From: a virus
Taxonomy: Duplodnaviria > Heunggongvirae > Uroviricota > Caudoviricetes
Length of the DNA: 64,000 nt
IMG/VR virus record: IMGVR_UViG_3300032167_007646
Reading direction: 5' to 3' (one strand)
Below are positions 2,683-42,985 of this stretch, one piece after another. The first letter of the stretch is position 1. Each line of letters begins with the position of its first letter. The translations under genes were made by a program, and so were the position numbers. The notes under the pieces are model-generated. The model was not told the DNA's origin. It worked only from the letters and a program-made list of their open reading frames with translations, and made no database searches.

Positions 2683-2882
2683 TCTCCTTTTTTATTTTTA
2701 TTTAATTTTGTTCTATATGATAATCCTGTTCCTGGTATTCCTACATTACCCATTATATCTCCATCTGGTTCAATAGAAACACTTGCACCTTTCTTACCTA
2801 TAGACAAACCTACACCACTTTTACTTAAATTCAAACTAACACCTTTAAACAATTTAATTTTCTTCTGAAATCTGAGTCCCAT
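2679..2882 (-). CDS. DUF4236-like small protein; start moved to MGLRFQKK
   Basis: 'MGLRFQKKIKLFKGVSLNLSKSGVGLSIGKKGASVS...GIPGTGLSYR' matches the DUF4236 pattern. Confidence 0.4.
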   Translation of the reverse strand: MGLRFQKKIKLFKGVSLNLSKSGVGLSIGKKGASVSIEPDGDIMGNVGIPGTGLSYRTKLNKNKKGD

Positions 2883-4080: not shown

Positions 4081-4171
4081 TTTATTTATTCTCCTATAAC
4101 AAAAAATTAGAGGGGTTTATTAAGGTATACCAATAATAAACCCTAATAAAACCCCTCCTATAAACTAAAAA

Positions 4172-5206: not shown

Positions 5207-5270
5207 TCACCTTTCCATAAATAGTATTTTTGTATTCAATATTTTTACATCATTTCTATCTTGTCATTTA

Positions 5271-5299
5271 ATTATATCATAAAAATAATCTTTTGTCAA
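5271..5299 (-). promoter_or_regulatory. Promoter TTGACA-N17-TATAAT for 4172-5206
   Basis: Minus-strand TTGACA at 5294-5299 and TATAAT at 5271-5276. Confidence 0.6.
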
Positions 5300-5348
5300 C
5301 ACACATAATGAAAAATATTAAATATTTTTGTAACTTTTTCTTAATAAA

Positions 5349-6041: not shown

Positions 6042-6053
6042 TATATCACAACC

Positions 6054-6458
6054 TTAAACTTTTTCCCAATATCCATATAAACTATACTCACCACAATTCC
6101 AAGTATCATAATAAAAACCATCTACTACTGTTACTATATGATGAGCTAAACGCAAAACAAAAGTACCGTCTCTATGTGTATTTGCAAAAGATTTAACAGT
6201 AGGTCTTTTTGTACCTTTTTTATTACTAATACCTTGATACTTAAATTTCTTTACTTCTTCTAAATATTTTTCATAACAAGGTCTGCAATTAAAAGGTACT
6301 TGCATTTCCCTACTGATAGGCTGCATTTCATCAAATACTTCTAACCATTCCATATTCAATGCCTTACATAAACTACGAATTACACAATCACCATATTTAT
6401 CTTTAAGGTCTTTTTTATTAGGTTGAAAATAAACATAACCTGTAACTTTTTTACCCAT
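6054..6458 (-). CDS. Hypothetical protein
   Basis: 134-aa ORF with Cys/His content. Lies between well-supported genes. Confidence 0.35.
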   Translation of the reverse strand: MGKKVTGYVYFQPNKKDLKDKYGDCVIRSLCKALNMEWLEVFDEMQPISREMQVPFNCRPCYEKYLEEVKKFKYQGISNKKGTKRPTVKSFANTHRDGTFVLRLAHHIVTVVDGFYYDTWNCGEYSLYGYWEKV

Positions 6459-6469
6459 AATAACACTCC

Positions 6470-14962: not shown

Positions 14963-15202
14963 TTAATTTCTATTCATAAATACTACTTGTTCTCTTATTA
15001 AAGTAGAACACTCATCAATATGCTCACATAAAGAACAATGACTAAAACATTCTTTAAATTTCATTGTTTTAATTAACTCATAACAACGAGAATTATCTTT
15101 AATAGGACCCCATAAGTTTTTACATTGACTATCTTTACAATCAAAACAATCCTTTATTGAATTTTTATCACAAACATTATTCATCAGCCAACACCCTCTC
15201 AC
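14963..15202 (-). CDS. Small Cys-rich protein (possible zinc-binding)
   Basis: 79-aa ORF with about 12 Cys. Confidence 0.3.
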   Translation of the reverse strand: MRGCWLMNNVCDKNSIKDCFDCKDSQCKNLWGPIKDNSRCYELIKTMKFKECFSHCSLCEHIDECSTLIREQVVFMNRN

Positions 15203-16922
15203 ATACTTTTTTTATTACAGGTACTACCACAGTATTACCCAATAAATCCATACCCTTATTATAATCTATATCTAATTTATAATCATCAGGATAACCGTCT
15301 AAACGTAATCCTTCTCTTAAAGTTAATTTACGAATACCTTTACCGTCTATAACACCTGTTTTATGAACATCAGTTGCTACAAGAGTTAAAGAAGGTTTAT
15401 TAGGGTCTAATATCTTTGTAAACTCATAACTTAATCTACCGCCATTTATATCATACAAAGTATTAGGATATGTGTCTAATTTTACTTCTTTAAGATAATT
15501 ACAACTTAACAAATACTCAATGTCTTTATCTAAATCTTCACCCTCATAAATCAATTTAAGTTCTTCTTTATCCAACCCTAAACCATCTTTCAAAGGCTGA
15601 CCTTTTTTCTTTGCTAAATCACTTCTTCTTCGTTCTGTAACTAACTTTTCCATTAACTTTTGCTGACTTTCTGTAGTAACACCTCTCAAACCTAAAGTCC
15701 AACTATGTATATTATTACTACTTCCCCTTTTATCTCTAATTGCTTTATCATATAAATAATCTACGGATAAATTATTTTTATCTAAATAATCAAACAACTT
15801 TATAGAAAAGTCACTATTTACACAAGGCTTACCAACCTCTTGAACATCTCCAAACTTACAATCTACCTTTTCAAAATCATCTAAACTAATATATCTATCT
15901 TTACAACCAACAATATAAATTCTTCTTCTTAATTGTGGTACACCAAAATCACTTGCTTGTAATACTTTCCAAGTAACTTTATACCCTAATTCTTCAAGTA
16001 CATATAATATTGTTTCTAATGTTTTTCCAATTGTTTTACCTAATTTTTTATCTTCTTTACTTAAATCATGAATAACAAGATTTTCCACATTTTCTAACAA
16101 GAAATATTTAGGACTTTTTTCTTTTAATATACGAGCCACTTCAAAGAAAAGAGTTCCACGAGTATCTTCAAAACCTGCCCTTTTACCTGCTGCACTAAAA
16201 GGCTGACAATTATGTACTATTATATCATTTGCTGTATAAGAATTATCTTCTTTTACACATAGATTATAAACTTTTGTTCTCCTACTTACTGTCTTAAATT
16301 TACCTCTAACTCTAACCCAAAAATATTTATTATCTTGACTATATACCTTATCTAAATATTTTTCAGTCTTTTGTATTAACTCAATAGGTATACCTACAAG
16401 CATACCCTTCTTCAACTCTCCAGCTTTTACCCATTCTGGTTCTTGCTTTTCTTTACTTTCCAAAACTTCTGGTAAAGGTGTAGTTATGGTATAAAATGGA
16501 TGATTTTCAGTAGTTCCTATCAAAATATTATTTTCCAAACTAATATTATAATAACTATCTACTGATTGTTCCATAATTTCTTCTACTTCTTTATATGTAT
16601 TTGTATGAGTTAATACTTTATCTCCTACCTTAACATCTCTTATTTTCTTATATCCTATTTCTGTAAATACAAGAGTTTCACCTATAAAACAAGGAAAACC
16701 TGCCAAAAGCATATCAAAATTAGGAATATCTTTTCCTTCTATTTTTGTAATATCTCCAACAATATTATCTTCACCAAAATTATCTTTATAAACTTTTAAC
16801 GCATGTGGTTTTATTTCAGAAGTAAGAACACACTCACCTTTTATACCCTTATCTTTTAATGCTTGTTCTAAACCAAGTCTTATTCCACCCATACCTGCAA
16901 ATAAATCTATATACTTAAACAC
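15177..16922 (-). CDS. DNA (cytosine-5)-methyltransferase interrupted by a 161-aa mini-intein at the catalytic Pro-Cys motif
   Basis: Motif I 'FAGMGGIRLG'. Motif IV is split: 'GFP' | intein | 'CQPFSAAGKR'. ENV motif 'LLENVENL'. Full C5-MTase C-terminal half. Confidence 0.85.
   Translation of the reverse strand: MFKYIDLFAGMGGIRLGLEQALKDKGIKGECVLTSEIKPHALKVYKDNFGEDNIVGDITKIEGKDIPNFDMLLAGFPCFIGETLVFTEIGYKKIRDVKVGDKVLTHTNTYKEVEEIMEQSVDSYYNISLENNILIGTTENHPFYTITTPLPEVLESKEKQEPEWVKAGELKKGMLVGIPIELIQKTEKYLDKVYSQDNKYFWVRVRGKFKTVSRRTKVYNLCVKEDNSYTANDIIVHNCQPFSAAGKRAGFEDTRGTLFFEVARILKEKSPKYFLLENVENLVIHDLSKEDKKLGKTIGKTLETILYVLEELGYKVTWKVLQASDFGVPQLRRRIYIVGCKDRYISLDDFEKVDCKFGDVQEVGKPCVNSDFSIKLFDYLDKNNLSVDYLYDKAIRDKRGSSNNIHSWTLGLRGVTTESQQKLMEKLVTERRRSDLAKKKGQPLKDGLGLDKEELKLIYEGEDLDKDIEYLLSCNYLKEVKLDTYPNTLYDINGGRLSYEFTKILDPNKPSLTLVATDVHKTGVIDGKGIRKLTLREGLRLDGYPDDYKLDIDYNKGMDLLGNTVVVPVIKKVCERVLADE
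16209..16691 (-). mobile_element. Mini-intein within the C5-MTase (residues 78-238); no obvious homing-endonuclease domain
   Basis: Block A 'CFIGETLVFTEIG...I'. Block B 'TENHPFYT'. Blocks F/G 'VYNLCVKEDNSYTANDIIVHN'. The next residue is Cys (+1). Confidence 0.8.
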
Positions 16923-32850: not shown

Positions 32851-33232
32851 TTAATCACAATTACAATCGCAATCACAATCACAATCGCAATCACAAGACA
32901 TATCACAACTAAAATCCCCTGTATCACAAACACAATCATCTTGAATTGTAGAATTATTTATTTCATCTTTAACCATATTTTCTATTTCACTATGTAATAA
33001 AACAGATTTACCATATTTTCTACTACCTAAAATAGATACTTCTCTCTCATCAAATTTTTTTCTTTATATCCTCTGATAATCCATATTTTCTACTACCTAA
33101 AATACTTGACCTGTTTCTTCCCTGATAAGCAAAACTATTACGAGCAACTTCCATACCTTTTTTAAAGCCCTCATGATAACCCTCTTGATAACCATCATGC
33201 CAAGATTTTATTTCTTTATTCTTATCTTTCAT
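32851..33232 (-). pseudogene. Frameshifted gene: a 60-aa ORF (33050-33232) followed in the +1 frame by an ORF ending in a 41-aa Cys/Asp-repeat tail (MVKDE...CDCDCDCDCDCNCD). Removing one base from a T7/A7 run at 33055-33061 fuses them.
   Basis: Hand translation. ORF1 ends '...ILGSRKYGLSEDIKKKI*'. The downstream frame reads '...FDEREVSILGSRKYGKSVLLHSEIENMVKDEINNSTIQDDCVCDTGDFSCDMSCDCDCDCDCDCNCD*'. A 24-bp direct repeat (33017-33040 and 33087-33110) encodes ILGSRKYG twice. Confidence 0.4.
32855..32900 (-). repeat. Imperfect hexanucleotide repeat (plus strand ACAATC[A/G])n encoding (Cys-Asp)n
   Basis: Plus strand reads 'acaattacaatcgcaatcacaatcacaatcgcaatcacaag'. Seen directly in the sequence. 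Confidence 0.8.
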
Positions 33233-33242
33233 ATTATCACCC

Positions 33243-33410
33243 TTACAACTTTATTTTTTTATTTTTCAAAGAACCATCCCAAATACTCCTAATCTTACAT
33301 ATAAAAGAATTTCTATTTCTATCATCATCTATTGACACACAAACAGGAACATCTTTACCCTCTTGTGCTAATGCTATCTTTTCTTTTGCAGTTAAATACT
33401 TTTTCTTCAT
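33243..33410 (-). CDS. Small hypothetical protein; start moved to MKKKYLTAKEK
   Basis: Short ORF inside the operon. Cys-containing. Confidence 0.3.
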   Translation of the reverse strand: MKKKYLTAKEKIALAQEGKDVPVCVSIDDDRNRNSFICKIRSIWDGSLKNKKIKL

Positions 33411-33423
33411 ACCTACATCTCCT

Positions 33424-34821
33424 TTACCATACAATTATAGGCATTGATTTATCTATATTTTCATAAACAACTTTTGCTGCATTTAATGGCATATTTACAC
33501 AACCATGAGAACCATTCCACTTATAAATATTCCCACCAAATTGATACCTCCAAGTAGCATCATGCAAACCTATACCACCATCAAAAGGCATCCAATACTT
33601 AACGGGTGTTTCATAATCTACACCCCTTAATACAGCATTTCTTGTTTTATATGTAAGAGAAAAAATACCTTTACGAGTACCCATATTTCTACCAACATTT
33701 CCTGTAACAACAGGAGTATCAACTATACATTCACCATTTACATACATCCAAACCCTCTGATTATCTATACTTACTTCTACATAACTATTTGAGAAATCTT
33801 TTTCACCAAATACTGCACCCTTTTGACTGAATATACCATCAAATGTTCCTGAATTTTTATTTAATAAATTTTCTTTTATGCTCTCAATCATTTTATTTCT
33901 ATCTAATATCCAACCATAATCCCCATTTGAAACTGTAATTACATCACCTGTGGAAGTTGTAAAAGAACGAGAAGTACCTATTGTAGTATATTTTTTATTC
34001 AACTCACCTACAAAAGATTTTACACCATCATTATCTATGTTAAAAGGTTTATCACCATTTAATGATATACCATCTTCTATATAATTAGGTATTAACCAAG
34101 CATAAAATATAGGTAAAGTAATTTTTTCTTTATTATTACCAAAAATGTATTCTAATTCAACTTCTTTATAACTGTTATAAATACCTAAATTACTGTTCAA
34201 AACTGAATTTTCTTTAATTACCTCTGGTGCTTCATAACAATTCAACTCTACAAAATCTATCTCTTTTTCAAAAGATTTTAATGCTTGTTCAAAAATATCA
34301 GAACAACCATCTACAAAAACATTGCCATAAACTTCTGGTATTATTTCAAATTCATTCTTTTCTATATTATATGTAATATACGCATTTTTTGATTCTATAA
34401 TATTTTCTTCATTCTTTTTACTTATAGTATTTATAATACTATCTATACTATCCTTATCTATAATAATAACATTAGTTAAATCTAAAGATTGTGTAGATTT
34501 ACTAAATAAAAATTTAAATTTACTCAATTTTCTTAAATTTTCCAATAATACTTCTTGATTTATATTTTCTATAACTTCAGAATATGACTTTTCTTCTGTT
34601 GAATTATCTGACAACTTTATAACAAAATTATAATCATTTATTTCATTTGAAATAATTTCACTTGCTTGTTTATTTGTCTTAAAACTTATATCTATATCAC
34701 CTATATCTGTACTTACTACAGAAGTAAAAGGAAAAACAATATTAAACAATACAACAACACCTATTACTACGACAAGTAAAATACTACACGCAACTATAAT
34801 CCAGTTGCTTACCTTTTTCAT
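33424..34821 (-). CDS. Membrane-anchored L,D-transpeptidase (YkuD-domain) protein
   Basis: N-terminal TM. C-terminal catalytic region '...GIGLHDATWRYQFGG...GSHGCVNMP'. Confidence 0.7.
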   Translation of the reverse strand: MKKVSNWIIVACSILLVVVIGVVVLFNIVFPFTSVVSTDIGDIDISFKTNKQASEIISNEINDYNFVIKLSDNSTEEKSYSEVIENINQEVLLENLRKLSKFKFLFSKSTQSLDLTNVIIIDKDSIDSIINTISKKNEENIIESKNAYITYNIEKNEFEIIPEVYGNVFVDGCSDIFEQALKSFEKEIDFVELNCYEAPEVIKENSVLNSNLGIYNSYKEVELEYIFGNNKEKITLPIFYAWLIPNYIEDGISLNGDKPFNIDNDGVKSFVGELNKKYTTIGTSRSFTTSTGDVITVSNGDYGWILDRNKMIESIKENLLNKNSGTFDGIFSQKGAVFGEKDFSNSYVEVSIDNQRVWMYVNGECIVDTPVVTGNVGRNMGTRKGIFSLTYKTRNAVLRGVDYETPVKYWMPFDGGIGLHDATWRYQFGGNIYKWNGSHGCVNMPLNAAKVVYENIDKSMPIIVW

Positions 34822-34850
34822 TAACTATCTACCTACCTTTACTACAAATA

Positions 34851-35405
34851 TTATCCATCACGTCTATCCCAAGTCTTTTTAGTCTCTACTTCTGCTGAAA
34901 TAGGTTCTTGTTCTGCTTCTATCTTTTCATCAAGATGTTTTAATGATTTACCACAAATATCACAATAATTTGACTTAAATATAGATAATTTATACAAAGC
35001 ATCTGCTACATCATCAGCTTCAAATAACTCTTTACCACAAACACAAAATAAACTACCATCATTAAATACTAATCCATTTTTCTCAAGTAATTTATCAGAA
35101 TATTTACTATCAGAAAGTCTTAAAATCTTATCAATAGTTTCTCTTATTTTATCCTCACCAACAATATTCATGTTCTTTACATTATTTACAAGCATAGAAG
35201 CAAGAGTATTAAGAATAAACTCATTTTTAGCCTTTTCATCTTCCTTAAATTTTTCAGGTACTCTTATTTCACCACAATTAGGACAAATTCTTACAGCAAT
35301 TTGATTTACATCTATACCACCATAATCATTATCCCCATAACCACCGTCTGAATGATACCAAGTAGTATCATAATACACATTTTTATTACAAAATTTACAA
35401 GCCAT
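34851..35405 (-). CDS. Cys-rich zinc-ribbon protein
   Basis: CxxC pairs 'CKFCNK', 'CPNCGE', 'CVCGKE' and 'CDICGK'. Confidence 0.4.
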   Translation of the reverse strand: MACKFCNKNVYYDTTWYHSDGGYGDNDYGGIDVNQIAVRICPNCGEIRVPEKFKEDEKAKNEFILNTLASMLVNNVKNMNIVGEDKIRETIDKILRLSDSKYSDKLLEKNGLVFNDGSLFCVCGKELFEADDVADALYKLSIFKSNYCDICGKSLKHLDEKIEAEQEPISAEVETKKTWDRRDG

Positions 35406-35417
35406 AATTGTTCCCCC

Positions 35418-36206
35418 TTAACCCATATGATTACAAGCAAAATTTGATAAAGCATAAAGTTTTTCTACAACAAAATCAGGAATATAACCACTTTCACTAT
35501 GCACACAAATTTTACCTAAAACTTCTATATTTATATTATCAACAGTTAATTTACCACTTGTAATACCATCTCTCAAAGCCTTACACTCTTTACTATTCTT
35601 TTTATAGGAACAATAATCACAAGAAAAGTTATCTACTTCTTTATCATCACCCTCTAAAAGACAATCAGTACAACTAAAATACCATCCTATAAGACCTTTA
35701 CAATCCCAAGAATTGCAAACATATTCTTCTGAACAATCTGTTACCAAATCTATTACTTTTTCATCTGTAGAAAAATCTACCATATAAAAAGGTGCCATAC
35801 GAACAGGTCCTTCATTTGATTTCTTATGTTCTTCAAACTTTCTCTTCCAAAACTCTACATAATCTGCATAAGTTTCACATTCTAACCAATCAATATTATA
35901 ATCAAAATAATCCCAAGTTTCAAAACCAAAATCTTTCTTCAATTTCTTATTGATTTTATCATGCTCTTCATATAATTCTTTTGTATATTTTCCATCCTTA
36001 ATATACTTAAAAGAACTTGATTTTTCATCATAATAAACACCATAATCAGATGCTACTTTTAACAATTTTTCTTTATTCTCATAATATTCTCTATAATATT
36101 CTTTAATCATATTAAAAAGAATATCTTTTGTTTTATCATCATCTTTTTTACCAATTATGAAACTACTACTCGAACTATTTGTAACATAATCCATCCTAAT
36201 TTTCAT
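35418..36206 (-). CDS. DFVTNSSSSSF-tag family protein, paralog 4 (Cys-rich; C-terminus 'ACNHMG')
   Basis: N-terminus 'MKIRMDYVTNSSSSSFIIG'. Full-length paralog of 37348-38133. Confidence 0.5.
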   Translation of the reverse strand: MKIRMDYVTNSSSSSFIIGKKDDDKTKDILFNMIKEYYREYYENKEKLLKVASDYGVYYDEKSSSFKYIKDGKYTKELYEEHDKINKKLKKDFGFETWDYFDYNIDWLECETYADYVEFWKRKFEEHKKSNEGPVRMAPFYMVDFSTDEKVIDLVTDCSEEYVCNSWDCKGLIGWYFSCTDCLLEGDDKEVDNFSCDYCSYKKNSKECKALRDGITSGKLTVDNINIEVLGKICVHSESGYIPDFVVEKLYALSNFACNHMG

Positions 36207-36207
36207 A

Positions 36208-36654
36208 TCAATCTTCCTCCAATATTACAAAATATTCTTTATTCATTTCTGCTAAACCTTTTATCATCTCTGTCAAAGTATCATCTGAATAATCTATATA
36301 CTTAAATAAAATTTTATATCCATCATGAACATACTCAATTATCTTTTCATAATCTTCCTTACAATAAGGAGAATTGATAAATAAAGTTTCTAATGTATCT
36401 TGACTACTACCATATCTACCTAAAAAATACTTATTAAAAGATTCTTCATCTTTACAAAGAACACCCTCTGTTGTTTCATCATAAGAAGAACCTGCTGAAA
36501 ATAGAATTTTATCTACCATTTCATTGATATTTCTCAAAAAAGGATAACGCTTCAAGACATCTTCATCCAAATTTGGAAAATCTTTATATGCAATAACAAA
36601 ACTACTACTTGAACTATTTGTTACAAAATCTGTTCTTAACTTCATTATAACCAC
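36208..36654 (-). CDS. DFVTNSSSSSF-tag family protein, paralog 3 (short)
   Basis: N-terminus 'MKLRTDFVTNSSSSSFVIA'. Shares only the tag with the other paralogs. Confidence 0.5.
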   Translation of the reverse strand: MVIMKLRTDFVTNSSSSSFVIAYKDFPNLDEDVLKRYPFLRNINEMVDKILFSAGSSYDETTEGVLCKDEESFNKYFLGRYGSSQDTLETLFINSPYCKEDYEKIIEYVHDGYKILFKYIDYSDDTLTEMIKGLAEMNKEYFVILEED

Positions 36655-36655
36655 C

Positions 36656-37336
36656 TTACCTTTCTACTTCTTCAAAATACATATTCAACCATTCTAAAGG
36701 TATTTCTATCCATTGGAAAATATTTTGATGATATAATTCTAAATGAACTTCACCATCTAATGCACTATCAACATCTTCATTCAATTCATATAAACTATCC
36801 TTATTTACTGCAATTTGGTCATTGCTACAATCACAATTATCCAAATAAAATGACTTAATACATCTATATAATTTAGGTTCTTCTACTTCAACCATTTTAT
36901 TTGAAACATATTCTGTATTTTCTTTAATATCAAATATATGAGCCAAAGGTAATTTTGTCTTATAAAATGCACCCTCACCTATATATCTCATATCATCAGA
37001 TTGTTCAAAATGAAAAAGATTTTCACATTCTGCAAAGGCATATTTACCAATATAATGTAAATCACTACCACCTTTATTAAGATGTACTGACCATAAATTT
37101 TTAAATCCCCTAAAAGCATTATCACAAATAACTCTTACACTATCTGGTAACACTACTTCTCTTACAGTTTCTTCATGTAAAATACCTTTTTCATCTTTAA
37201 GCATATCACAAAGAACTTCTCTTGAAACAACTTCAATACCATCTGGAAAATATACTATATTTGTTCCAACCTCTGGACTTACTTCAAATTCGATATAACC
37301 ATATAATTGTTTCTTATAATCCACAAACGACACCAC
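36656..37336 (-). CDS. Leucine-rich-repeat protein (BspA-type LRR_5-like)
   Basis: Repeats 'IGKYAFAECENL' and 'IGEGAFYKTKL'. Confidence 0.5.
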   Translation of the reverse strand: MVSFVDYKKQLYGYIEFEVSPEVGTNIVYFPDGIEVVSREVLCDMLKDEKGILHEETVREVVLPDSVRVICDNAFRGFKNLWSVHLNKGGSDLHYIGKYAFAECENLFHFEQSDDMRYIGEGAFYKTKLPLAHIFDIKENTEYVSNKMVEVEEPKLYRCIKSFYLDNCDCSNDQIAVNKDSLYELNEDVDSALDGEVHLELYHQNIFQWIEIPLEWLNMYFEEVER

Positions 37337-37347
37337 CTAACATTTAT

Positions 37348-38133
37348 TTAACCCATATGATTGCAATAAACATTAGATTTTGCACCTAATTTTTCTACAA
37401 CATATTCAGGTATATAACCACAATAACTTATCACACCTATTTTACCTAATACCTTGCAAACAAGTGTCTCTTTTGTATATTTACCTTCTTTTTCATTTGA
37501 CTTAAACTTTTCACAAGCATCTTTATTATGATTAAAAGGACATTCCCCACATTCTCCAATATAATTTCCTTCTAAATCATAATCCTGCTCTTCTGATGGG
37601 AAAAGAACACAAGGTAAATACCAATCTATCAATTCTTGATAATCAAAGCTATCTTTGAATAACTTACCATCTGGCATTTCTCTATCTTTTTCAAAATCAA
37701 TTATATCAAAAGGTCTCATAGAAAAACCATGAGCATCCTTTGAATCTTTTCCACCAAAAAATTCTACAAAATCATCATAAGTTTCACATTTTAACCACTC
37801 AAAATTATGATAAAAATATAAATCACAAAGTTCTACACCAAAATCTTTTTTCAAACGAGCATTTATTTCTTTACGCTCTGCTCTAAGTTCATCAGTAAGT
37901 TTACCAAACTTAATATATGTAAAACACTCTCTTTCTACATCCCAACAAACACCATAATCTTTTGCAACAGGCATAAGTCTTTTCTTTATATCTAAAAACT
38001 CTTTATAAATATGTCTTACAAGTTCATATACAGTATTTTTATCAATACCATCACCATATTTACCTATAATAAAACTACTACTTGAGCTATTTGTAACAAA
38101 ATCTTTTCTAAATTTCATACCTACTACCACCAA
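37348..38133 (-). CDS. DFVTNSSSSSF-tag family protein, paralog 2 (Cys-rich; C-terminus 'YCNHMG')
   Basis: N-terminus 'MKFRKDFVTNSSSSSFIIG'. Aligns along its full length with 35418-36206. Confidence 0.5.
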   Translation of the reverse strand: MVVVGMKFRKDFVTNSSSSSFIIGKYGDGIDKNTVYELVRHIYKEFLDIKKRLMPVAKDYGVCWDVERECFTYIKFGKLTDELRAERKEINARLKKDFGVELCDLYFYHNFEWLKCETYDDFVEFFGGKDSKDAHGFSMRPFDIIDFEKDREMPDGKLFKDSFDYQELIDWYLPCVLFPSEEQDYDLEGNYIGECGECPFNHNKDACEKFKSNEKEGKYTKETLVCKVLGKIGVISYCGYIPEYVVEKLGAKSNVYCNHMG

Positions 38134-38829
38134 TCATTCTAATTCTAATGTTCTTGTATGTTTACATTTACCTGTTTTCTTACAATATGTAAAAGTTTCT
38201 GTGTCATTACTACTTCTACCACCTGCATACTCTTCAAAATCTTCCTCAGTAACTTCTTCCACAGAAATACCTTTTTCTGCTGCTATATTTTTATAAATCT
38301 TCTTTAATGTTTTCTTATCATAACAGTCAGGATACATTCTTGTATCACTATCTCCACCCCAACCATAATCATTATACTCTATCTCTACATCACCAATATC
38401 ATTAAATATTTCTTTACTTCTCAATAATATTTCTTTTGCAATCTGACTATTTTTAGGCAAAGGATTCTCTTCTTCAAAATCAATTTTAGGAATACAACCC
38501 TTTCTACTAATAATAGCATATTCTGTATCAAATAAAGATATAAAAGTATTTAAAGCCTCTCTTAAATTTTTAGGTGCTTCATAGATATAACCATCTTGTT
38601 CCGTATATGTAACAATATCGCCATCTACATTTAAATTATTTAAGGCATAAGTATAACCATTAAAATCCTCTTCTGATAAATCTACATCCTTATCATATAA
38701 TTTAGGACAAACTTCTAACTGAAATCTTTTTATAATCTCTGAAAGAGTTTTACTCTCAATTTGAACAGTAATAAAACTACTACTAGAACTGTTTGTAACA
38801 AAATCACTTCTAAATTTCACTTTATACAC
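38134..38829 (-). CDS. DFVTNSSSSSF-tag family protein, paralog 1
   Basis: N-terminus 'MYKVKFRSDFVTNSSSSSFITV'. The rest of the protein is unrelated to the other paralogs. Confidence 0.5.
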   Translation of the reverse strand: MYKVKFRSDFVTNSSSSSFITVQIESKTLSEIIKRFQLEVCPKLYDKDVDLSEEDFNGYTYALNNLNVDGDIVTYTEQDGYIYEAPKNLREALNTFISLFDTEYAIISRKGCIPKIDFEEENPLPKNSQIAKEILLRSKEIFNDIGDVEIEYNDYGWGGDSDTRMYPDCYDKKTLKKIYKNIAAEKGISVEEVTEEDFEEYAGGRSSNDTETFTYCKKTGKCKHTRTLELE

Positions 38830-38833
38830 TCCT

Positions 38834-39073
38834 TTAATTCATATCTTCACGAGCAATATTATATCCTATTTGAAGAAGTTTTGCTTTCTTTGTTGCCGCT
38901 AACTTGCTTGTAGCGTCAGCTATTTTATAAAAAGGAACTTGCATAGGATTCTTTTCATAAACCACAAAATTATCTATTCCCTCTTGTTTAACCATAAAAT
39001 TATTAAAATGAATAGTATCATCTATTTGTTTCATTTTAGGATTATAAATTTCTTCAAACTTCATATAACTCAC
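38834..39073 (-). CDS. Hypothetical protein
   Basis: 79-aa ORF in the operon. Confidence 0.3.
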   Translation of the reverse strand: MSYMKFEEIYNPKMKQIDDTIHFNNFMVKQEGIDNFVVYEKNPMQVPFYKIADATSKLAATKKAKLLQIGYNIAREDMN

Positions 39074-39082
39074 TCCAATAAA

Positions 39083-39427
39083 TTATTCTATTATCCCTAA
39101 AATTGCAAAATCATAAGTAGAAAACTTAATAGACTTACCATTACCAAAGAACACAAATATAGTTTTATTATTTGTAACCTCAAGGGATTTAGAATCAGCA
39201 AAAGCTTTATCTATTTCTTCCGCTTCTGAATAAAACTTTCTAATATCCCTTTCTTGTTCATTTTCATCATCAGTCTTAAATACAAAACCTAACTGAATAT
39301 AAGCAGAAAAAACAAAATCACCCATTAGTTCTTTCATATAATTAGTAATATCATAACGATATTCTGTAAAATCCTTAAAGTCTTTATTGCAAAACTTATT
39401 CTTATATTTTTCCAACAAAATCACCAA
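39083..39427 (-). CDS. Hypothetical protein
   Basis: 114-aa ORF in the operon. Confidence 0.3.
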   Translation of the reverse strand: MVILLEKYKNKFCNKDFKDFTEYRYDITNYMKELMGDFVFSAYIQLGFVFKTDDENEQERDIRKFYSEAEEIDKAFADSKSLEVTNNKTIFVFFGNGKSIKFSTYDFAILGIIE

Positions 39428-39431
39428 CCTA

Positions 39432-39701
39432 TTATTTTACTTTTTTTATTGCACACTTTTCAGTACTTACTACAAGTTTTTCTCCATCTTTTACAAACAA
39501 AGTAATTGCACCGTCATCAATATCATATGTACTTACCTCAAACTGCTTAACAGCACCATTTGGCTGTTCTACTGTTGCAATATAACTTGTATTTGCAATC
39601 TTAAACATCATAAGAACCATTAGAGTTGCTATAACTACTGCAATACCAACTGCTATAAAATCAATACCTTTTACAATTTCTACAAATCTTTTCTTCAACA
39701 T
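39432..39701 (-). CDS. Small membrane-anchored protein
   Basis: 89-aa ORF with one TM helix. Lies directly downstream of the SPASM gene. Confidence 0.35.
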   Translation of the reverse strand: MLKKRFVEIVKGIDFIAVGIAVVIATLMVLMMFKIANTSYIATVEQPNGAVKQFEVSTYDIDDGAITLFVKDGEKLVVSTEKCAIKKVK

Positions 39702-39706
39702 AACTA

Positions 39707-41026
39707 TTAACCTCCATAGAATTCTCTTTCTTTATTATCACAAAGAACAATATCATTTACCAAAGGACAACCACCCATACAAAGTTCTCTCTTTGGACAT
39801 CCCTTACAACTATATCTTAAACAATCTCTAAACTTATTAAATTCTGAACTTTCCCAAGCATCCTTTATAGTTACTTTATCAGAAAGTTTAACAGCATACT
39901 TTTGGTCCTGATTATCAAAAGAACAAGGCAAAGCAGTCATATCTGCTGCAATATACATAGAATATCTACTACCCTCACAGGTATCAACACTACAAGTATC
40001 AATATGCTTACTCCAACGAACAACTGCAGGAATAGAACAACTATCAAAACCAATCTTAAATGGTGTTCTATGATTATCTACCAATTCAAAGAACTCTTTC
40101 ACACGAGGGTCATCAAGTCTTAAAACGTCATCATAATCACCCAAACCAACTGGTTTATGAAGGAGAAACACAACAGCATTTATACCTTTTGGAAAACCAT
40201 TATATTTAACTCTCAAAATTGCCTCATCTATTGTTGAATTACTCAATACATAATGAATATTTGTCTTTACACCCGCGTCTAACAACATCTTAATTGCTTT
40301 CATTGTATAATTAGGCTTCTGAACCTCATTATACACTTTATAAAATTCATATTCTTGGGGTTCTTCACTATAATACATATGATGAACTTCATCCCAAGCA
40401 TAATCTAATTCATTTATTTTATAAGCAGGTTCATCCCACTTACATTCTTCATTCAGACCACCAAGAGTAAATAATACAGGAATATCATCTTCTGATTTAT
40501 AAACTTTCTTTTTATCCTCACTATGTACCCTTCTTAGTGCTAAATCTGGTATCATATCCAAACGAGAGTATTGCGAGACTGCCACAGCACCACAATACTT
40601 TTTACAAAGAGCAGCCTTTTCAGGTGTCATACCAAGACCACTTGTTGTAAAATTAGGTATAATACCATTATCACGAGTGTATTTTAAAACTTCTTCAAAA
40701 TTCTCATGCATATCTGGGTCACCACAACCACCTAATGCTATTTCAAACAATCTTTCTTTAGACCAATCTATAATTTTTTTATAATCTTCTAACTTCATAT
40801 TAGGTTTATCTGAATGTAATCCATCCTGATAACACTTAATACCTGCTTTCATACAAAGACCACTTTTTCCATGAGCACAATTTCCCATTAAACCAACATC
40901 TATGAGGTGAGGATACTCTGCCATAAATGGGTCTTCTTCTACATCAAAAGCCCTAATATATTCTCCTGTCTTATCATTAAACATTGTTGTAAAATTATAT
41001 TCACCATCTCTAATTACTCTAATCAC
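39707..41026 (-). CDS. SPASM-domain protein, probable radical-SAM enzyme with a non-canonical N-terminal Cys triad (C-x8-C-x6-C); GTG start
   Basis: C-terminal SPASM '...CSVDTCEGS...C...CLRYSCKGCPKRELCMGGCP'. Gly-rich 'ALGGCGDPDMH'. N-terminal 'GNCAHGKSGLCMKAGIKCY' replaces CxxxCxxC. RBS AGGTGG sits 7 nt before the GTG. Confidence 0.55.
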   Translation of the reverse strand: MIRVIRDGEYNFTTMFNDKTGEYIRAFDVEEDPFMAEYPHLIDVGLMGNCAHGKSGLCMKAGIKCYQDGLHSDKPNMKLEDYKKIIDWSKERLFEIALGGCGDPDMHENFEEVLKYTRDNGIIPNFTTSGLGMTPEKAALCKKYCGAVAVSQYSRLDMIPDLALRRVHSEDKKKVYKSEDDIPVLFTLGGLNEECKWDEPAYKINELDYAWDEVHHMYYSEEPQEYEFYKVYNEVQKPNYTMKAIKMLLDAGVKTNIHYVLSNSTIDEAILRVKYNGFPKGINAVVFLLHKPVGLGDYDDVLRLDDPRVKEFFELVDNHRTPFKIGFDSCSIPAVVRWSKHIDTCSVDTCEGSRYSMYIAADMTALPCSFDNQDQKYAVKLSDKVTIKDAWESSEFNKFRDCLRYSCKGCPKRELCMGGCPLVNDIVLCDNKEREFYGG

Positions 41027-41048
41027 TTAAACCACCTATCACCTTTCA

Positions 41049-41192
41049 TTATATTGACATAACTATTAACATTACTAATAAACCTATAACTACAACACCT
41101 ACTATAACCAAAAATATAAACATACAAATGTCATCTCCATCAAATCCAGAGAAAAAATCTTTAATTATATTTTTTAACTTTTCAAACCACAA
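41049..41192 (-). CDS. Small membrane peptide, paralog a (MWFEKLKNIIKDFF...; TTG start)
   Basis: Hand translation: amphipathic N-terminus followed by a C-terminal TM helix. RBS AGGAG. Missing from the track because it is shorter than 60 aa. Confidence 0.35.
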   Translation of the reverse strand: MWFEKLKNIIKDFFSGFDGDDICMFIFLVIVGVVVIGLLVMLIVMSI

Positions 41193-41203
41193 AGAACTCA
41201 CTC

Positions 41204-41380
41204 CTATATTACACCTGTAAAAATAGATATAAAAAAACTTACTACTACTACAATAAGAACTATAATTAAAACTATCATAAAATAGTCATCTATGTCTGCA
41301 AATGCAAAAAAATCACAAACTTCATCTAAAATATCACTTATAAACTCTTTAATTCTATTCTTTATCTTATCAAACCACAT
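41204..41380 (-). CDS. Small membrane peptide, paralog b (MWFDKIKNRIKEFISD...)
   Basis: Hand translation. RBS AGGTGG. Same architecture as paralog a. Confidence 0.4.
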   Translation of the reverse strand: MWFDKIKNRIKEFISDILDEVCDFFAFADIDDYFMIVLIIVLIVVVVSFFISIFTGVI

Positions 41381-41387
41381 AATCCAC

Positions 41388-41528
41388 CTACAACATTTCC
41401 AACAATATGTTTATTAGCAACATCGCAAAGAAAGTAAATAAAACTAAATAAAAACCAAAAGAAAATTCAGATATATTAAAATAATAAATAGACCTTTTCA
41501 ACTTCTTTAATTTTAAATCTAATTTCAT
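41388..41528 (-). CDS. Small membrane peptide, paralog c (MKLDLKLKKLKRS...)
   Basis: Hand translation. RBS GGCGGTGG. First gene after the promoter at 41559-41587. Confidence 0.3.
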   Translation of the reverse strand: MKLDLKLKKLKRSIYYFNISEFSFGFYLVLFTFFAMLLINILLEML

Positions 41529-41558
41529 AAAACCACCGCCATACTTTTAATCTATTCT

Positions 41559-41587
41559 ATTATAACCTAAAAACAACTAATTGTCAA
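41559..41587 (-). promoter_or_regulatory. Sigma-A-type promoter TTGACA-N17-TATAAT driving the ~8.7-kb operon
   Basis: Minus strand reads TTGACA at 41582-41587 and TATAAT at 41559-41564 with a 17-bp spacer. Confidence 0.6.
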
Positions 41588-41597
41588 TAAGCACAAA

Positions 41598-41632
41598 TAA
41601 AAAATAGATTAGTTTTTCAACTAATCTATCTT
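41598..41632 (-). terminator. Intrinsic terminator after the 41637-42161 gene
   Basis: Hairpin ATAGATTAGTT/AACTAATCTAT followed by a U-run on the minus strand. Confidence 0.5.
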
Positions 41633-41636
41633 TAAA

Positions 41637-42161
41637 TTACATTTTTTCTAACTGTGTTGCTTTTAATTCTAAATGTTTCATAAAATTTTCAGTTGTTTTT
41701 TTACCCTCTATATCTGAAAACTCTAAATTCATCATACATTCTCTATATTTATTTTCCATACCTTTTATAAGAGTCTTTCGTATATCAGATAACATTCTGT
41801 ATGTATTTTCATTAGTCATACCATCACCTATCATACAAAAACCAATTTCACTTGCTAATTGTAAAATTCTAAACCCGCTATCTGTCTTCTCTAATTTATA
41901 AGTATAACTACCCTCACGCACTAGACCTAAACAATAATTTATCAATTTTACAAAATTATTCAAATGTTCATCAGTTAAATTACCATTCTTTATTTCAACT
42001 GTATTTATTTGCCCTACTTTCATACGTTGTATTTTATTCTTTACAGCAGATTTACTATGATTTCTAAATTTTCTATGTATATCTTCTACTGTCAATCCTT
42101 CTTCCAAAAATTTCAATAATTTTAACTCTTCTGATTTAGTCCAAATTGCCATCATAAACAC
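41637..42161 (-). CDS. Hypothetical protein with an N-terminal Myb/SANT-like HTH
   Basis: 'WTKSEELKLLKFLEEGLTVEDIHRKF...' resembles the repeats of the 50119-52923 helicase. Confidence 0.35.
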   Translation of the reverse strand: MFMMAIWTKSEELKLLKFLEEGLTVEDIHRKFRNHSKSAVKNKIQRMKVGQINTVEIKNGNLTDEHLNNFVKLINYCLGLVREGSYTYKLEKTDSGFRILQLASEIGFCMIGDGMTNENTYRMLSDIRKTLIKGMENKYRECMMNLEFSDIEGKKTTENFMKHLELKATQLEKM

Positions 42162-42166
42162 CCCAC

Positions 42167-42430
42167 TTAAGACTCTCTAATAATACAATTCCTTACTATT
42201 CTATCTGCTAAATTTCCATACATAGAATATTTCCATTTCTTTTTATCATCCCAAGTTCTCCATTCACTTTCTGGAATACTATCAATTTTTTCAATAAATT
42301 TCTTTAATGTGTCTTTTTCTTTTTGAGTAATATGAAACCACATACTACCATTATGTGCTATCAAAGGTACATTATTTTCATCATCTAAATAATGTTTTAC
42401 TGAACTAGGTACTCTAATCATAAAAATCAC
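42167..42430 (-). CDS. Hypothetical protein
   Basis: 87-aa ORF. Confidence 0.3.
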   Translation of the reverse strand: MIFMIRVPSSVKHYLDDENNVPLIAHNGSMWFHITQKEKDTLKKFIEKIDSIPESEWRTWDDKKKWKYSMYGNLADRIVRNCIIRES

Positions 42431-42433
42431 TCC

Positions 42434-42985
42434 TTAATATCTACATAATTCTACTATTGTTTTTAATGCTTTTTTTCTACCCTCTGCAACTAAATTATTT
42501 CTCATAAATTCAGAAGTTTGATACTTATAATTCCTATAATACCAAGCAAACTGCAAAGGTATTACTTCTTCATCTCTAATTCTTCTTAATATTTCTAATG
42601 CTGTATCATAATCTACATAATCCTTTGTATAATTATAATGCCTTCCTGGTGCCTCTATCTTCTCAATAAAATATTTTTTATCTTTCTCTTTTACCAATAT
42701 TCTACCTATTTGTTCTACAGAATCTAAACCATTTGCTCTATTCAAATCTACTTCAAAACTATATAATGATTTTTTATTTGTTGGCATATTTGCTAAATAA
42801 TTATAAATATCATCTACTACTTTTAAATTAGAACATAATTGAATATCAGCATTATGTTTCTTTGCCATTTGTCTAATACCACTCCAAGTATGTCTATGTA
42901 AAAAATACTGAATATTTGCAGGAGTTTCTTTTATTTCTGCCAATTTACCTAACATTTGAATTTCTGAATCATACCAACTTGCCAT
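42434..42985 (-). CDS. Hypothetical protein
   Basis: 183-aa ORF. Confidence 0.35.
   Translation of the reverse strand: MASWYDSEIQMLGKLAEIKETPANIQYFLHRHTWSGIRQMAKKHNADIQLCSNLKVVDDIYNYLANMPTNKKSLYSFEVDLNRANGLDSVEQIGRILVKEKDKKYFIEKIEAPGRHYNYTKDYVDYDTALEILRRIRDEEVIPLQFAWYYRNYKYQTSEFMRNNLVAEGRKKALKTIVELCRY

What the first reader, a model, noticed from the sequence alone, without database searches (positions are those of the whole stretch)
35418..38829. Four tandem paralogs sharing only an N-terminal 'DFVTNSSSSSF' tag under purifying selection
The four N-termini are 'MKIRMDYVTNSSSSSFIIG', 'MKLRTDFVTNSSSSSFVIA', 'MKFRKDFVTNSSSSSFIIG' and 'VKFRSDFVTNSSSSSFITV'. They are conserved at the peptide level while the codons differ synonymously: TCG/TCA/TCT, AGT/AGC and AAT/AAC. 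The C-terminal bodies diverge or are unrelated. Two paralogs share a full-length Cys-rich body that ends '...CNHMG'. The other two are unrelated to those and to each other. A short conserved tag on otherwise different cargo proteins is typical of a targeting or recognition signal. Examples are a phage capsid-targeting sequence, a secretion signal or an enzyme leader. A five-serine run next to a SPASM enzyme recalls Ser-modifying maturases.
Basis: seen in the sequence. Interest (0 to 1): 0.8.

Follow-up and report, generated by a model that had tools for sequence, protein, structure and literature searches.

The report
Radical-SAM enzyme with N-terminally tagged proteins
The four genes belong to a very large, unannotated family of small acidic proteins whose invariant first 16 residues are almost always encoded next to one particular radical-SAM/SPASM enzyme, in gut bacteria, plasmids and large phages, so the tag is most likely that enzyme's recognition and modification site.

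Summary
Four minus-strand genes start with MK-x-R-x-D-[FY]-VTNSSSSSF, encoded by different codons. Two share a body ending in CNHMG; the other two bodies are unrelated in sequence.

The tag defines a superfamily: up to 9,317 clusters at 50% identity, nearly always at residue 1, on at least 75 body families. None has a Pfam, NCBIfam or literature description.

The decisive result is gene linkage. Loci found through the tag alone carry a close homologue of the window's rSAM/SPASM gene (39707-41026) in 62 of 77 viral and 73 of 80 bacterial cases. Loci found through the enzyme alone carry tagged ORFs in 76 of 79 cases. No other gene is shared. The pairing persists on alphaproteobacterial megaplasmids, with a variant tag and variant enzyme.

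AlphaFold models of two bodies are confident except for residues 1-11. Residues about 13-20 form the first strand of a ferredoxin-like core.

Best reading (about 0.5): one enzyme modifies many tagged protein substrates. The chemistry is unknown. Capsid-targeting and secretion-signal readings are not supported. This is a new variant of the rSAM maturase-substrate theme, of high interest, and needs mass spectrometry.

The parts
41559..41587 (-). Promoter-like site (TTGACA-17-TATAAT, 12 of 12 matches), the likely start of the transcription unit that holds the enzyme and the tag array
   Evidence: It is the only perfect consensus site in 33000-42500. The genes downstream are separated by 1-29 nt and no convincing terminator lies within the array. 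Function is inferred, not shown.
39707..41026 (-). Radical-SAM/SPASM enzyme (439 aa), the conserved partner of the tagged proteins
   Evidence: Pfam SPASM 25.1 bits (cutoff 21.5). TIGR04085 29.5 bits (cutoff 27). Pfam Radical_SAM E=2.7e-5, below its cutoff. phrog_7293 E=4.5e-25. Conserved features are a Cys triad, an ALGGxGDxxxHE motif and a C-terminal CX2CX5CX3C. The closest solved relative is SkfB, E=3e-6. Homologues lie next to tag genes in 219 of 241 loci.
38834..39701 (-). Three small untagged ORFs (89, 114 and 79 aa) between the enzyme gene and the array; they are probably not part of the conserved module
   Evidence: Only the 114-aa ORF has homologues, and only in the closest relatives L001/L002.
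38134..38820 (-). Tagged protein E (228 aa; GTG start; tag at 38773-38820); body family with a GWGGDSD motif
   Evidence: Body family 24.
37348..38118 (-). Tagged protein D (256 aa; tag at 38071-38118); Cys-rich body ending in CNHMG
36656..37336 (-). Untagged BspA-type leucine-rich-repeat protein inserted in the array
   Evidence: Pfam LRR_5 E=5.8e-13. It has no tag. It is absent, together with D and E, from a close relative (L244).
36208..36645 (-). Tagged protein B (145 aa; tag at 36598-36645); member of the second most widespread phage body family by a narrow margin (101 loci vs 102) and the only window member whose body is related to the single-copy bacterial partner
   Evidence: Body family 1, found in 101 loci. 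With the tag removed, hhalign against the bacterial 124-aa family gives 89% probability, E=2e-6. AF2 model has pLDDT 87.6, with residues 1-11 below 50 and the first strand at 14-20.
35418..36206 (-). Tagged protein A (262 aa; tag at 36159-36206); paralogue of D, ending in CNHMG
   Evidence: 45% identity to D.

Best explanation
The four genes are a phage-side expansion of a conserved two-part module. One part is an rSAM/SPASM enzyme (39707-41026). The other is a set of small acidic proteins that share nothing detectable in sequence except an invariant N-terminal peptide, M-K-x-R-x-D-[FY]-V-T-N-S-S-S-S-S-[FY].

The most likely mechanism is enzyme and substrates. Residues 1 to about 12 form a flexible N-terminal arm. 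Residues from about 13 anchor it as the first beta-strand of a small alpha/beta (ferredoxin-like) body. The rSAM/SPASM enzyme binds the arm and uses a 5'-deoxyadenosyl radical to modify a residue in it. One enzyme serves one substrate in bacteria and 2-10 different substrates in phages.

Two candidate chemistries follow from known SPASM enzymes. The first is oxidation of one of the invariant serines (S11-S13) to formylglycine, as AtsB/anSME does. The second is a cyclophane cross-link within [FY]7-V8-[TS]9, as enzymes of the FxsB/XyeB type make.

What is shown: the tag, its position at residue 1, its conservation at peptide level, the diversity of bodies, and the near-obligate linkage to the enzyme with co-variation. 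What is inferred: physical recognition, the act of modification, its chemistry, and the biological role. The role is probably in phage-host conflict, judging from ICE, defence-island and STAND-NTPase neighbourhoods and from the variable phage arrays.
For: (1) Linkage starting from the tag. Of the 77 IMG/VR loci found with the tag alone, 62 carry a strong homologue of the window enzyme (E 1e-57 to 1e-140) on the same strand. So do 73 of the 80 loci from bacterial genomes.

(2) Linkage starting from the enzyme. Of 79 IMG/VR loci found with the enzyme profile, 76 have 1-7 tagged ORFs within 8 kb. The other three are cut by contig ends. After dereplication, 112 of 113 enzyme clusters at 90% identity and 40 of 40 at 70% identity have a tag nearby.

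(3) Nothing else is conserved. Clustering 9,731 ORF segments from 158 loci gives only these two families in more than 100 loci.

(4) The pair survives changes of context and phylum. It appears as phage arrays, as a single 124-aa gene abutting the enzyme gene in Lachnospiraceae, Synergistota and other bacteria, and on Agrobacterium, Rhizobium and Rhodobacter megaplasmids.

(5) Co-variation. Enzymes with a canonical CX3CX2C motif go with tags carrying K4 and T/A14, and on the plasmids S9. This holds in phage loci L047, L051, L056 and L068 and on the alphaproteobacterial plasmids. The main clade has R4, T9 and S14.

(6) One enzyme gene faces many differing tagged genes. There are at least 75 body families, and only one pair of them is related once the tag is removed. 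This is the pattern of an enzyme with many substrates.

(7) Two independent AF2 models (pLDDT 85.7 and 87.6) are confident everywhere except residues 1-11, which are the most conserved residues.

(8) The enzyme has the rSAM Cys triad, a GGE-like motif and a full SPASM CX2CX5CX3C motif. Its nearest solved relatives, SkfB and PqqE, modify peptides.

(9) There is precedent for a SPASM enzyme that oxidises Ser on whole proteins (AtsB/anSME) and for SPASM cyclophane synthases (PMC10114670).
Against: No modification has been observed; everything rests on gene linkage and structure prediction.

The enzyme has no recognisable RRE/PqqD-like peptide-binding domain (no Pfam hit). In the window type, the radical-SAM cluster loop is non-canonical (C-x7-C-x6-C), and the Pfam Radical_SAM score is below its cutoff. 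Activity is therefore assumed.

The second half of the tag is predicted to be a structural beta-strand, so part of its conservation could be structural.

Many body families also have strongly conserved extreme C-termini. By ferredoxin-like topology these should lie beside strand 1. That would also fit an intrinsic functional site built from both termini.

Distant enzyme homologues in Slopekvirus phages have no tagged neighbour.
Confidence: 0.5

Rival explanations
1. Docking tag. The tagged proteins are not substrates. They are interchangeable adaptor or regulatory subunits. The invariant N-terminal arm plugs into the rSAM/SPASM enzyme, and the variable acidic bodies recruit different targets to it, or switch it on and off.
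For: This reading explains the same linkage data. It also explains the flexible arm, the many bodies per enzyme, and the turnover of array content between close relatives, which would fit changing target specificity.
Against: Families of 2-10 alternative subunits for one rSAM enzyme have no precedent I know of (from memory). The extreme invariance of small polar residues (T-N-S-S-S) is more typical of a reaction site than of a docking interface. In bacteria there is only one tagged protein per enzyme.
Confidence: 0.2
2. Intrinsic site. All tagged proteins are highly diverged homologues of one small ferredoxin-like domain. The tag, perhaps together with the conserved C-terminal tail, is their own ligand-binding, metal-binding or catalytic site. 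The rSAM/SPASM enzyme makes the small molecule or cofactor that they bind or process, rather than acting on the proteins.
For: Residues about 13-20 form strand 1 in both models. Both models give only ferredoxin-like (ACT/S6-type) matches. The C-terminal eight residues are more conserved than the rest of the body in 8 of 13 families. All bodies share an acidic character.
Confidence: 0.15
3. Self-processing motif. The T-N-S-S run undergoes autocatalytic cleavage or rearrangement, either Asn-mediated or Ser-Ser serinolysis as in pyruvoyl enzymes. This would generate a new reactive N-terminus, with the rSAM enzyme acting before or after.
For: The Asn-Ser and Ser-Ser pairs are invariant and lie in a flexible segment. 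Ser-Ser cleavage sites are known in pyruvoyl decarboxylases (from memory).
Against: This does not by itself explain the obligate rSAM partner. The bodies show no similarity to pyruvoyl or Ntn folds. The fixed distance from Met1 and the conserved K2, R4 and D6 suggest that the N-terminal arm itself matters.
Confidence: 0.07
4. Targeting signal unrelated to the enzyme: a capsid-targeting sequence, a secretion or lipidation signal, or a degron.
For: The tag is short, sits at the N-terminus and is shared by different cargo. The window is phage-like.
Against: The pair also occurs as a two-gene cassette in bacterial chromosomes, an ICE-like region and plasmids, without virion genes. No protease, portal or transporter is conserved nearby. 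The tag has no hydrophobic h-region, lipobox or twin-arginine motif (read directly from the sequence). The linkage to the enzyme would be left unexplained.
Confidence: 0.03

Closest known systems
Anaerobic sulfatase-maturating enzymes (AtsB/anSME) and their sulfatase substrates
   Same: An rSAM/SPASM enzyme acts on whole proteins, not on a peptide that is later excised, at a short conserved Ser/Cys-containing motif. One enzyme can serve many paralogous substrates. No leader cleavage or export is involved (PMC10114670).
   Different: The sulfatase motif (C/S)-x-(P/A)-x-R is absent from the tag. The bodies are not sulfatases (no Pfam hit). The enzyme is not close to anSME: it is not among the PDB profile hits at E up to 0.1 and there is no anSME NCBIfam hit. 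Here the motif sits at the extreme N-terminus.
rSAM/SPASM (and twitch) RiPP maturases with co-encoded precursors (SkfB, AlbA, PqqE, StrB, and the cyclophane synthases XyeB/GrrB/FxsB)
   Same: The enzyme class is the same, and the closest solved relatives are SkfB and PqqE. Substrates are co-encoded, often in several copies, with a conserved N-terminal part and variable remainder. The F-x-S/T triplet in the tag resembles cyclophane motifs (PMC10114670).
   Different: Here the putative substrates are predicted folded proteins of 100-300 aa from at least 75 families, not peptides of 20-80 aa. The conserved part is only 16 residues and includes the most invariant residues, whereas in RiPPs the modified core is the variable part. 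No RRE domain, leader protease or exporter is conserved. There is no NCBIfam match to XyeB, GrrM or FxsB.
rSAM/SPASM 'peptide-processing' modules of STAND/AP-ATPase conflict systems (FxSxx-type peptides; Kaur et al. 2020, PMC7159879)
   Same: On alphaproteobacterial megaplasmids the tag protein and enzyme sit in one operon with a protein combining a SMEK nuclease and an Avs2-like STAND NTPase. That paper describes rSAM-SPASM genes paired with F-x-S-containing peptides beside STAND NTPases.
   Different: In those systems the motif is C-terminal (FxSxx-COOH) on short peptides, and peptidase components accompany it. Here the motif is N-terminal on folded proteins. The STAND association is seen only in three plasmids and in none of the Firmicutes or phage loci.
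phrog_7397 (PHROGs v4, unknown function)
   Same: It is the only library family that recognises the tag. It hits 17 of 50 diverse tagged proteins, over profile positions 1-29.
   Different: It has no annotation, no link to the enzyme, and covers only one body family.

Membership tests
Radical SAM / SPASM enzyme (partner gene 39707-41026) | SPASM domain with a CX2CX5CX3C motif for auxiliary Fe-S clusters | tested here: met
   Pfam SPASM 25.1 bits against a cutoff of 21.5. TIGR04085 29.5 bits against 27. C407-x2-C410-x5-C416-x3-C420, together with C330, C350, C368 and C429, is conserved in the family.
Radical SAM / SPASM enzyme (partner gene 39707-41026) | Radical-SAM core: a three-Cys motif (canonical CX3CX2C) and a GGE-type SAM motif | tested here: inconclusive
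   Pfam Radical_SAM has E=2.7e-5, but 24.8 bits is below the 29.5 cutoff. Three Cys are present, with spacing C-x7-C-x6-C in the window type. The motif is a canonical CX3CX(F)C in the clade L047/L051/L056/L068 and on the plasmids. ALGGxGDxxxHE is conserved.
rSAM-dependent RiPP system | Co-encoded substrate(s) sharing a conserved recognition sequence | tested here: met
   Reciprocal co-occurrence: 62/77, 73/80 and 76/79 loci. After dereplication, 112 of 113 enzyme clusters have a tag nearby.
rSAM-dependent RiPP system | Short precursor peptide with a variable core that is modified and released (leader protease and/or exporter in the cluster) | tested here: not met
   Tagged proteins are 100-300 aa with confident folded models. 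No protease or transporter family is conserved among 158 loci.
rSAM-dependent RiPP system | RRE (PqqD-like) leader-binding domain, in the enzyme or as a partner | tested here: not met
   No PqqD/RRE Pfam or NCBIfam hit was found in the enzyme. No third conserved gene exists. A divergent RRE cannot be excluded.
rSAM-dependent RiPP system | Enzyme-dependent covalent modification of the substrate | not testable with these tools
   This needs co-expression and mass spectrometry.
anSME/AtsB-sulfatase maturation | Substrate motif (C/S)-x-(P/A)-x-R in a sulfatase domain | tested here: not met
   The tag D-[FY]-V-T-N-S-S-S-S-S-[FY] has no Pro/Ala-x-Arg after a Ser. The bodies contain no sulfatase Pfam domain.
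Three-residue cyclophane (triceptide) systems | An aromatic-X-X motif in the substrate and an enzyme of the XyeB/GrrM/FxsB families | tested here: inconclusive
   [FY]7-V8-[TS]9 is present and conserved (F 305, Y 38 of 343). The enzyme gives no NCBIfam hit to those families.
Phage capsid-targeting sequence (T4 type) | Confined to phages; cleaved by a prohead protease; cargo found in virions | tested here: not met
   The tag-enzyme pair occurs in bacterial chromosomes, an ICE-like region and megaplasmids without virion genes. Cleavage and virion location are not testable here.
Sec/Tat/lipoprotein signal peptide | Positively charged n-region followed by an uninterrupted hydrophobic h-region and a cleavage site, lipobox or RR motif | tested here: not met
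   After MK-x-R the sequence is D-F-V-T-N-S-S-S-S-S, which is polar. There is no run of seven or more hydrophobic residues, no lipobox Cys and no twin arginine. In the models, F-I-I-G/A is a buried strand.

The most novel reading that the evidence does not exclude
A previously undescribed post-translational system. A dedicated rSAM/SPASM enzyme installs a new modification on a universal N-terminal T-N-S-S-S peptide. That peptide is carried by thousands of otherwise unrelated small acidic proteins. The system is mobile between bacteria, plasmids and large phages, where the substrate set has expanded to 2-10 per genome. It would act as a shared 'arming' step for effectors in phage-host conflict, for example a reactive aldehyde or a stapled N-terminal warhead on anti-defence or defence proteins.
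Probability: 0.4. Interest if true: 0.9.

Novelty: new variant of a known kind. Interest (0 to 1): 0.8.

Why it matters
If the enzyme really modifies the tag, this would be a protein-level counterpart of RiPP maturation. One radical enzyme would serve a hyperdiverse set of folded substrates through a 16-residue handle. The tag family may span thousands of protein clusters that today are all 'hypothetical'.

It would add new rSAM/SPASM chemistry or a new substrate logic. It would give a functional entry point into a large block of dark matter in gut and rumen phages and Clostridia. It would also provide a portable tag-enzyme pair of possible biotechnological use, for site-specific N-terminal protein modification.

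The defence-island and STAND-NTPase neighbourhoods, together with the fast-changing phage arrays, point to a role in phage-host conflict that can be tested directly.

Tried and rejected
**Library scans.** Pfam, NCBIfam, PADLOC and PHROGs scans of the four proteins and of 60 further tagged proteins gave nothing, apart from phrog_7397 (unknown function), which matches the tag itself.

**Structure and sequence databases.**
- PDB sequence search with D gave nothing.
- Foldseek against BFVD gave nothing.
- The afdb50 library was unavailable.

**Deposited phage genomes (INPHARED).** There was no DNA match to the region, no protein match to B, and no close match to a typical phage-type enzyme. There are only about 32%-identical enzyme homologues in Slopekvirus phages. 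The phiEap-3 region has no tagged ORF. That clade therefore probably has another partner.

**Literature.** Full-text search for the motif strings and for SPASM/phage/serine-rich term combinations found no description.

**Ideas considered and rejected.**
- A nucleotide-level repeat or recombination artefact: the codons differ.
- A signal peptide, and a capsid-targeting sequence: see the membership table.
- A third conserved gene: none was found. An HTH-like ORF appears in 24 bacterial loci only. The window neighbours YkuD, LRR and the small ORFs are not conserved.
- A general STAND/Avs association: it is seen only on three alphaproteobacterial plasmids.

**Uninformative result.** The Fretibacterium chromosomal context told nothing.


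Full report
**1. The observation**

The window has about 28% G+C and strong negative GC skew. Every ORF of 150 aa or more lies on the minus strand.

Between 35418 and 38820 lie five tightly packed minus-strand genes:
- A, 35418-36206, 262 aa.
- B, 36208-36645, 145 aa.
- An untagged BspA-type LRR protein, 36656-37336 (Pfam LRR_5, E=5.8e-13).
- D, 37348-38118, 256 aa.
- E, 38134-38820, 228 aa.

E starts at a GTG that follows an AAAGGAG ribosome-binding site.

The motif occurs only four times in the six-frame translation of the window, always at a gene start. Pairs of tags share 12-14 of 16 residues, and 3-5 of those use different codons.

A and D are full-length paralogues (45% identity) ending in CNHMG. 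Profile-profile comparison of the A/D, B and E families aligns with confidence only the first 23-30 residues.

**2. The tag defines a large, unannotated superfamily**

Each of the three body types has its own family of full-length metagenomic homologues. All keep T-N-S-S-S-S-S invariant. In 199 of 206 homologues the Thr is residue 9, so the tag starts at Met1.

A 33-column profile of the four window N-termini was searched against 1.84 billion representative proteins. It found 9,317 proteins at E up to 1e-3. The best 150 are 32-300 aa long, and in almost all of them the match starts at residue 1. The lower-scoring part of that list was not inspected, so 9,317 is an upper bound.

No Pfam, NCBIfam or PADLOC model matches the window proteins or 60 further members. 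Only phrog_7397 (unknown function) recognises the tag. NCBI calls isolate-genome members 'hypothetical protein'. Full-text searches for the motif found no description.

Across 343 distinct tagged ORFs:
- T9, N10 and S11-S13 never vary.
- D6, F/Y7, V8 and F/Y16 almost never vary.
- S14 and S15 tolerate T, A or C.
- Each Ser position uses both AGY and TCN codons.

**3. The partner**

The gene at 39707-41026 encodes an rSAM/SPASM protein. It passes the SPASM and TIGR04085 cutoffs. Pfam Radical_SAM has E=2.7e-5, below its cutoff.

Family alignment shows a conserved Cys triad, an ALGGxGDxxxHE motif and a C-terminal CX2CX5CX3C. The spacing of the triad is canonical (CX3CX2C) in a minority clade and expanded to C-x7-C-x6-C in the window type.

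The nearest solved relatives are SkfB (E=3e-6), PqqE and BtrN.

**4. Linkage**

I fetched loci using the tag alone.
- In IMG/VR, 220 places were confirmed. In the 77 loci kept (contigs of 5-416 kb), tagged ORFs form same-strand tandem arrays of 1-7 genes. Of these loci, 62 carry a strong homologue of the window enzyme, usually just upstream. Several of the other 15 are cut by contig ends. In one case (L074), the enzyme and another array lie 25 kb away on the same contig (L038).
- In one-genome-per-species bacterial contigs, 226 places were confirmed. They are mostly Lachnospiraceae, Oscillospiraceae and other Clostridia from gut and rumen. Isolates are included: the Fretibacterium fastidiosum chromosome, Butyrivibrio sp. 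XPD2006, Lachnospiraceae NK4A144, Dorea and Fusicatenibacter. Of the 80 loci kept, 73 have the enzyme. The typical layout is a single tagged gene of about 124 aa directly abutting the enzyme gene.

I then searched in the reverse direction. Of 79 IMG/VR loci found with the enzyme profile alone, 76 have 1-7 tagged ORFs within 8 kb. The three exceptions are truncated.

After dereplication, 112 of 113 enzyme clusters at 90% identity, and 40 of 40 at 70%, have a tag nearby. Part of this set was selected through the tag, so this count is not independent of the tag-first searches.

All-against-all clustering of 9,731 ORF segments from 158 loci finds only these two families in more than 100 loci. The next genuine family is an HTH-like ORF in 24 bacterial loci. 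None of the window's other neighbours (YkuD, LRR, small ORFs) is conserved.

**5. Persistence over large distances, and co-variation**

Enzyme homologues of 33-35% identity, with canonical CX3CX2C, sit on Agrobacterium, Rhizobium and Rhodobacter megaplasmids. Each is directly preceded by a protein of 131-132 aa starting MKIK[LM]DFVSNSSSTSF, a variant tag with K4, S9 and T14.

The same K4 and T/A14 variant accompanies the canonical-motif enzyme clade in phage loci L047, L051, L056 and L068. The main clade has R4, T9 and S14.

This matches the expectation for a directly interacting pair. Shared ancestry of enzyme and tag genes within each lineage would produce the same pattern.

**6. The bodies**

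After removing the first 19 residues, the 758 tagged ORFs in the fetched loci (not dereplicated) fall into at least 75 families.
- B belongs to one of the two most widespread phage families (101 loci).
- A and D belong to the CNHMG family.
- E belongs to a rarer family.

Without the tag, only the B-like family and the bacterial 124-aa family are detectably related (hhalign 89%, E=2e-6). The other pairs among the 14 families compared show nothing convincing (next best 42% and 20% probability).

The bodies are unusually acidic. Median pI is 4.5, and 89% are below 5, against 21% of neighbouring same-strand ORFs. In 8 of 13 families the last eight residues are more conserved than the rest of the body (RFSHH, IDGDLSY, CNHMG, LESHH and others).

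AF2 models of D (92 sequences, pLDDT 85.7, pTM 0.84) and B (22 sequences, pLDDT 87.6) are confident everywhere except residues 1-11. Residues 13-18 (D) and 14-20 (B) form the first beta-strand.

So the tag has two parts: a flexible, invariant arm (residues 1 to about 12), and the start of strand 1 of a small alpha/beta body that matches no described family.

**7. Context**

The window carries thymidine kinase, thymidylate kinase, DNA methyltransferases, helicases and a DnaD-like protein. This looks like the replication and nucleotide-metabolism arm of a large phage-like element.

Its closest relatives are metagenomic contigs of up to 395 kb. No deposited phage genome carries the module.

A perfect sigma-70 consensus at 41587-41559 precedes two tiny ORFs, the enzyme gene and the array. 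Gene gaps are 1-29 nt and no convincing terminator intervenes, so a single operon is likely; this is an inference.

Array content differs between near-identical relatives: one lacks E, D and the LRR gene.

In Butyrivibrio the cassette lies between a PIN protein, a Schlafen-type helicase and a methylase/MamI restriction pair on one side, and a PIF1-like helicase and a TraG/VirD4 coupling protein on the other. This resembles an ICE or defence island.

On the alphaproteobacterial plasmids the pair forms an overlapping-ORF operon with an 883-aa protein. That protein combines a SMEK nuclease (PADLOC Aga_REase, 1e-51) with an Avs2-like STAND NTPase (8e-27). The STAND link is confined to those plasmids.

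**8. Interpretation**

Four things are shown:
- the tag, and its conservation at peptide level;
- its fixed position at residue 1;
- a very diverse set of bodies;
- near-obligate, reciprocal, context-independent linkage to one rSAM/SPASM subfamily, with co-variation.

The mechanism is inferred. One enzyme gene facing many different tagged genes, with invariant small polar residues in a flexible arm, best fits enzyme and substrates. In this model the enzyme binds the arm and modifies it.

Known SPASM chemistry offers two concrete candidates (PMC10114670):
- Ser to formylglycine, as AtsB/anSME does on whole proteins.
- A cyclophane within [FY]7-V8-[TS]9, as the FxsB/XyeB type enzymes make.

The rivals are:
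- the arm is a docking peptide that makes the bodies interchangeable adaptors;
- the arm, together with the conserved C-terminal tail, is an intrinsic site of a diverged ferredoxin-like domain that uses the enzyme's product;
- the arm undergoes self-processing;
- the arm is an unrelated targeting signal, which the bacterial and plasmid cassettes make unlikely.

**9. Comparison with known systems**

The module works like an rSAM maturase with tagged substrates.

It is not a member of the anSME-sulfatase system: the motif and the sulfatase domain are both absent.

It is not a standard RiPP cluster. The substrates are folded proteins. The invariant part, rather than the variable part, is the likely reaction site. 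No RRE, protease or exporter is conserved.

It also differs from the FxSxx-COOH peptide modules of STAND conflict systems (PMC7159879), where the motif is C-terminal and sits on short peptides.

I file it as a new variant of a known kind. There is a substantial chance (about 0.4) that it is a genuinely new protein-modification system used in phage-host conflict.

**10. Verdict**

- Observation: confirmed.
- Interpretation: partly supported. The enzyme-recognition reading is supported; the capsid and secretion readings are not.
- Mechanism: confidence about 0.5.
- Interest: 0.8.

Noticed in passing
L023 about 4998-7364 and L032 about 2448-4793 (IMG/VR loci): The rSAM/SPASM gene carries an in-frame insertion of about 420 aa. 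It looks like an intein or homing endonuclease and ends ...SHN|C. It lies immediately before the conserved ALGGxGD motif.
   Followed up: no
L001 1-7260 (395-kb metagenomic contig, closest relative of the window): A complete type I-E-like cas operon (Cas3 HD/helicase, Cse1, Cse2, Cas7, Cas5, Cas6e by Pfam) ends about 130 nt upstream of the rSAM/SPASM gene on a phage-like contig.
   Followed up: no
window 40318-40564 (enzyme residues about 155-237): The window enzyme has an insertion of about 80 residues between the rSAM core strands. It is shared only with its closest relative L001, and in part with L150. Most family members are about 360 aa.
   Followed up: partly
window 1-64000: All 45 ORFs of 150 aa or more are on the minus strand. 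GC skew is -0.24 to -0.54 across the whole window, at 23-31% G+C.
   Followed up: no
window 36656-37336: An untagged BspA-type leucine-rich-repeat gene sits inside the tag array. In a near-identical relative (L244) it is missing together with D and E.
   Followed up: partly
window 15177-16922: A 581-aa DNA methyltransferase also matches PHROGs annotated as anaerobic ribonucleotide reductase and helicase, over residues about 73-202. This suggests a shared mobile insertion (intein or HNH-like).
   Followed up: no
tagged proteins in all fetched loci (for example window 35418-35441, CNHMG): The bodies are strongly acidic (median pI 4.5). In 8 of 13 families the extreme C-terminus is the best-conserved part of the body (RFSHH, LESHH, CNHMG, IDGDLSY, GAGRDG). 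By ferredoxin-like topology it should lie next to the tag strand.
   Followed up: partly
L246 1566-6002, L247 1559-6014, L248 1530-5981 (Agrobacterium, Rhodobacter and Rhizobium megaplasmids): An operon of overlapping ORFs: a SMEK-nuclease/Avs2-like STAND NTPase, a 121-aa protein, a variant-tag protein (MKIKMDFVSNSSSTSF...) and an rSAM/SPASM enzyme with canonical CX3CX2C.
   Followed up: partly
L138 2993-17111 (Butyrivibrio sp. XPD2006): The two-gene cassette is flanked by a PIN7 protein, a Schlafen-type helicase, an N6/N4 methylase plus MamI restriction enzyme, a PIF1-like helicase and a TraG/VirD4 coupling protein. This resembles an ICE or defence island.
   Followed up: partly
L095 8064-12825 ('Gastranaerophilales' MAG contig) and L142 2123-4886 ('Kaiserbacteria' MAG contig): These are the largest arrays seen, with 10 and 7 consecutive tagged genes after the enzyme gene. 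The contigs may be phage sequence binned into MAGs.
   Followed up: no
window 41049-41380 and 39432-39701: Small ORFs around the enzyme gene (58, 50 and 89 aa) have hydrophobic, membrane-like segments. They have no homologues in the other loci.
   Followed up: no
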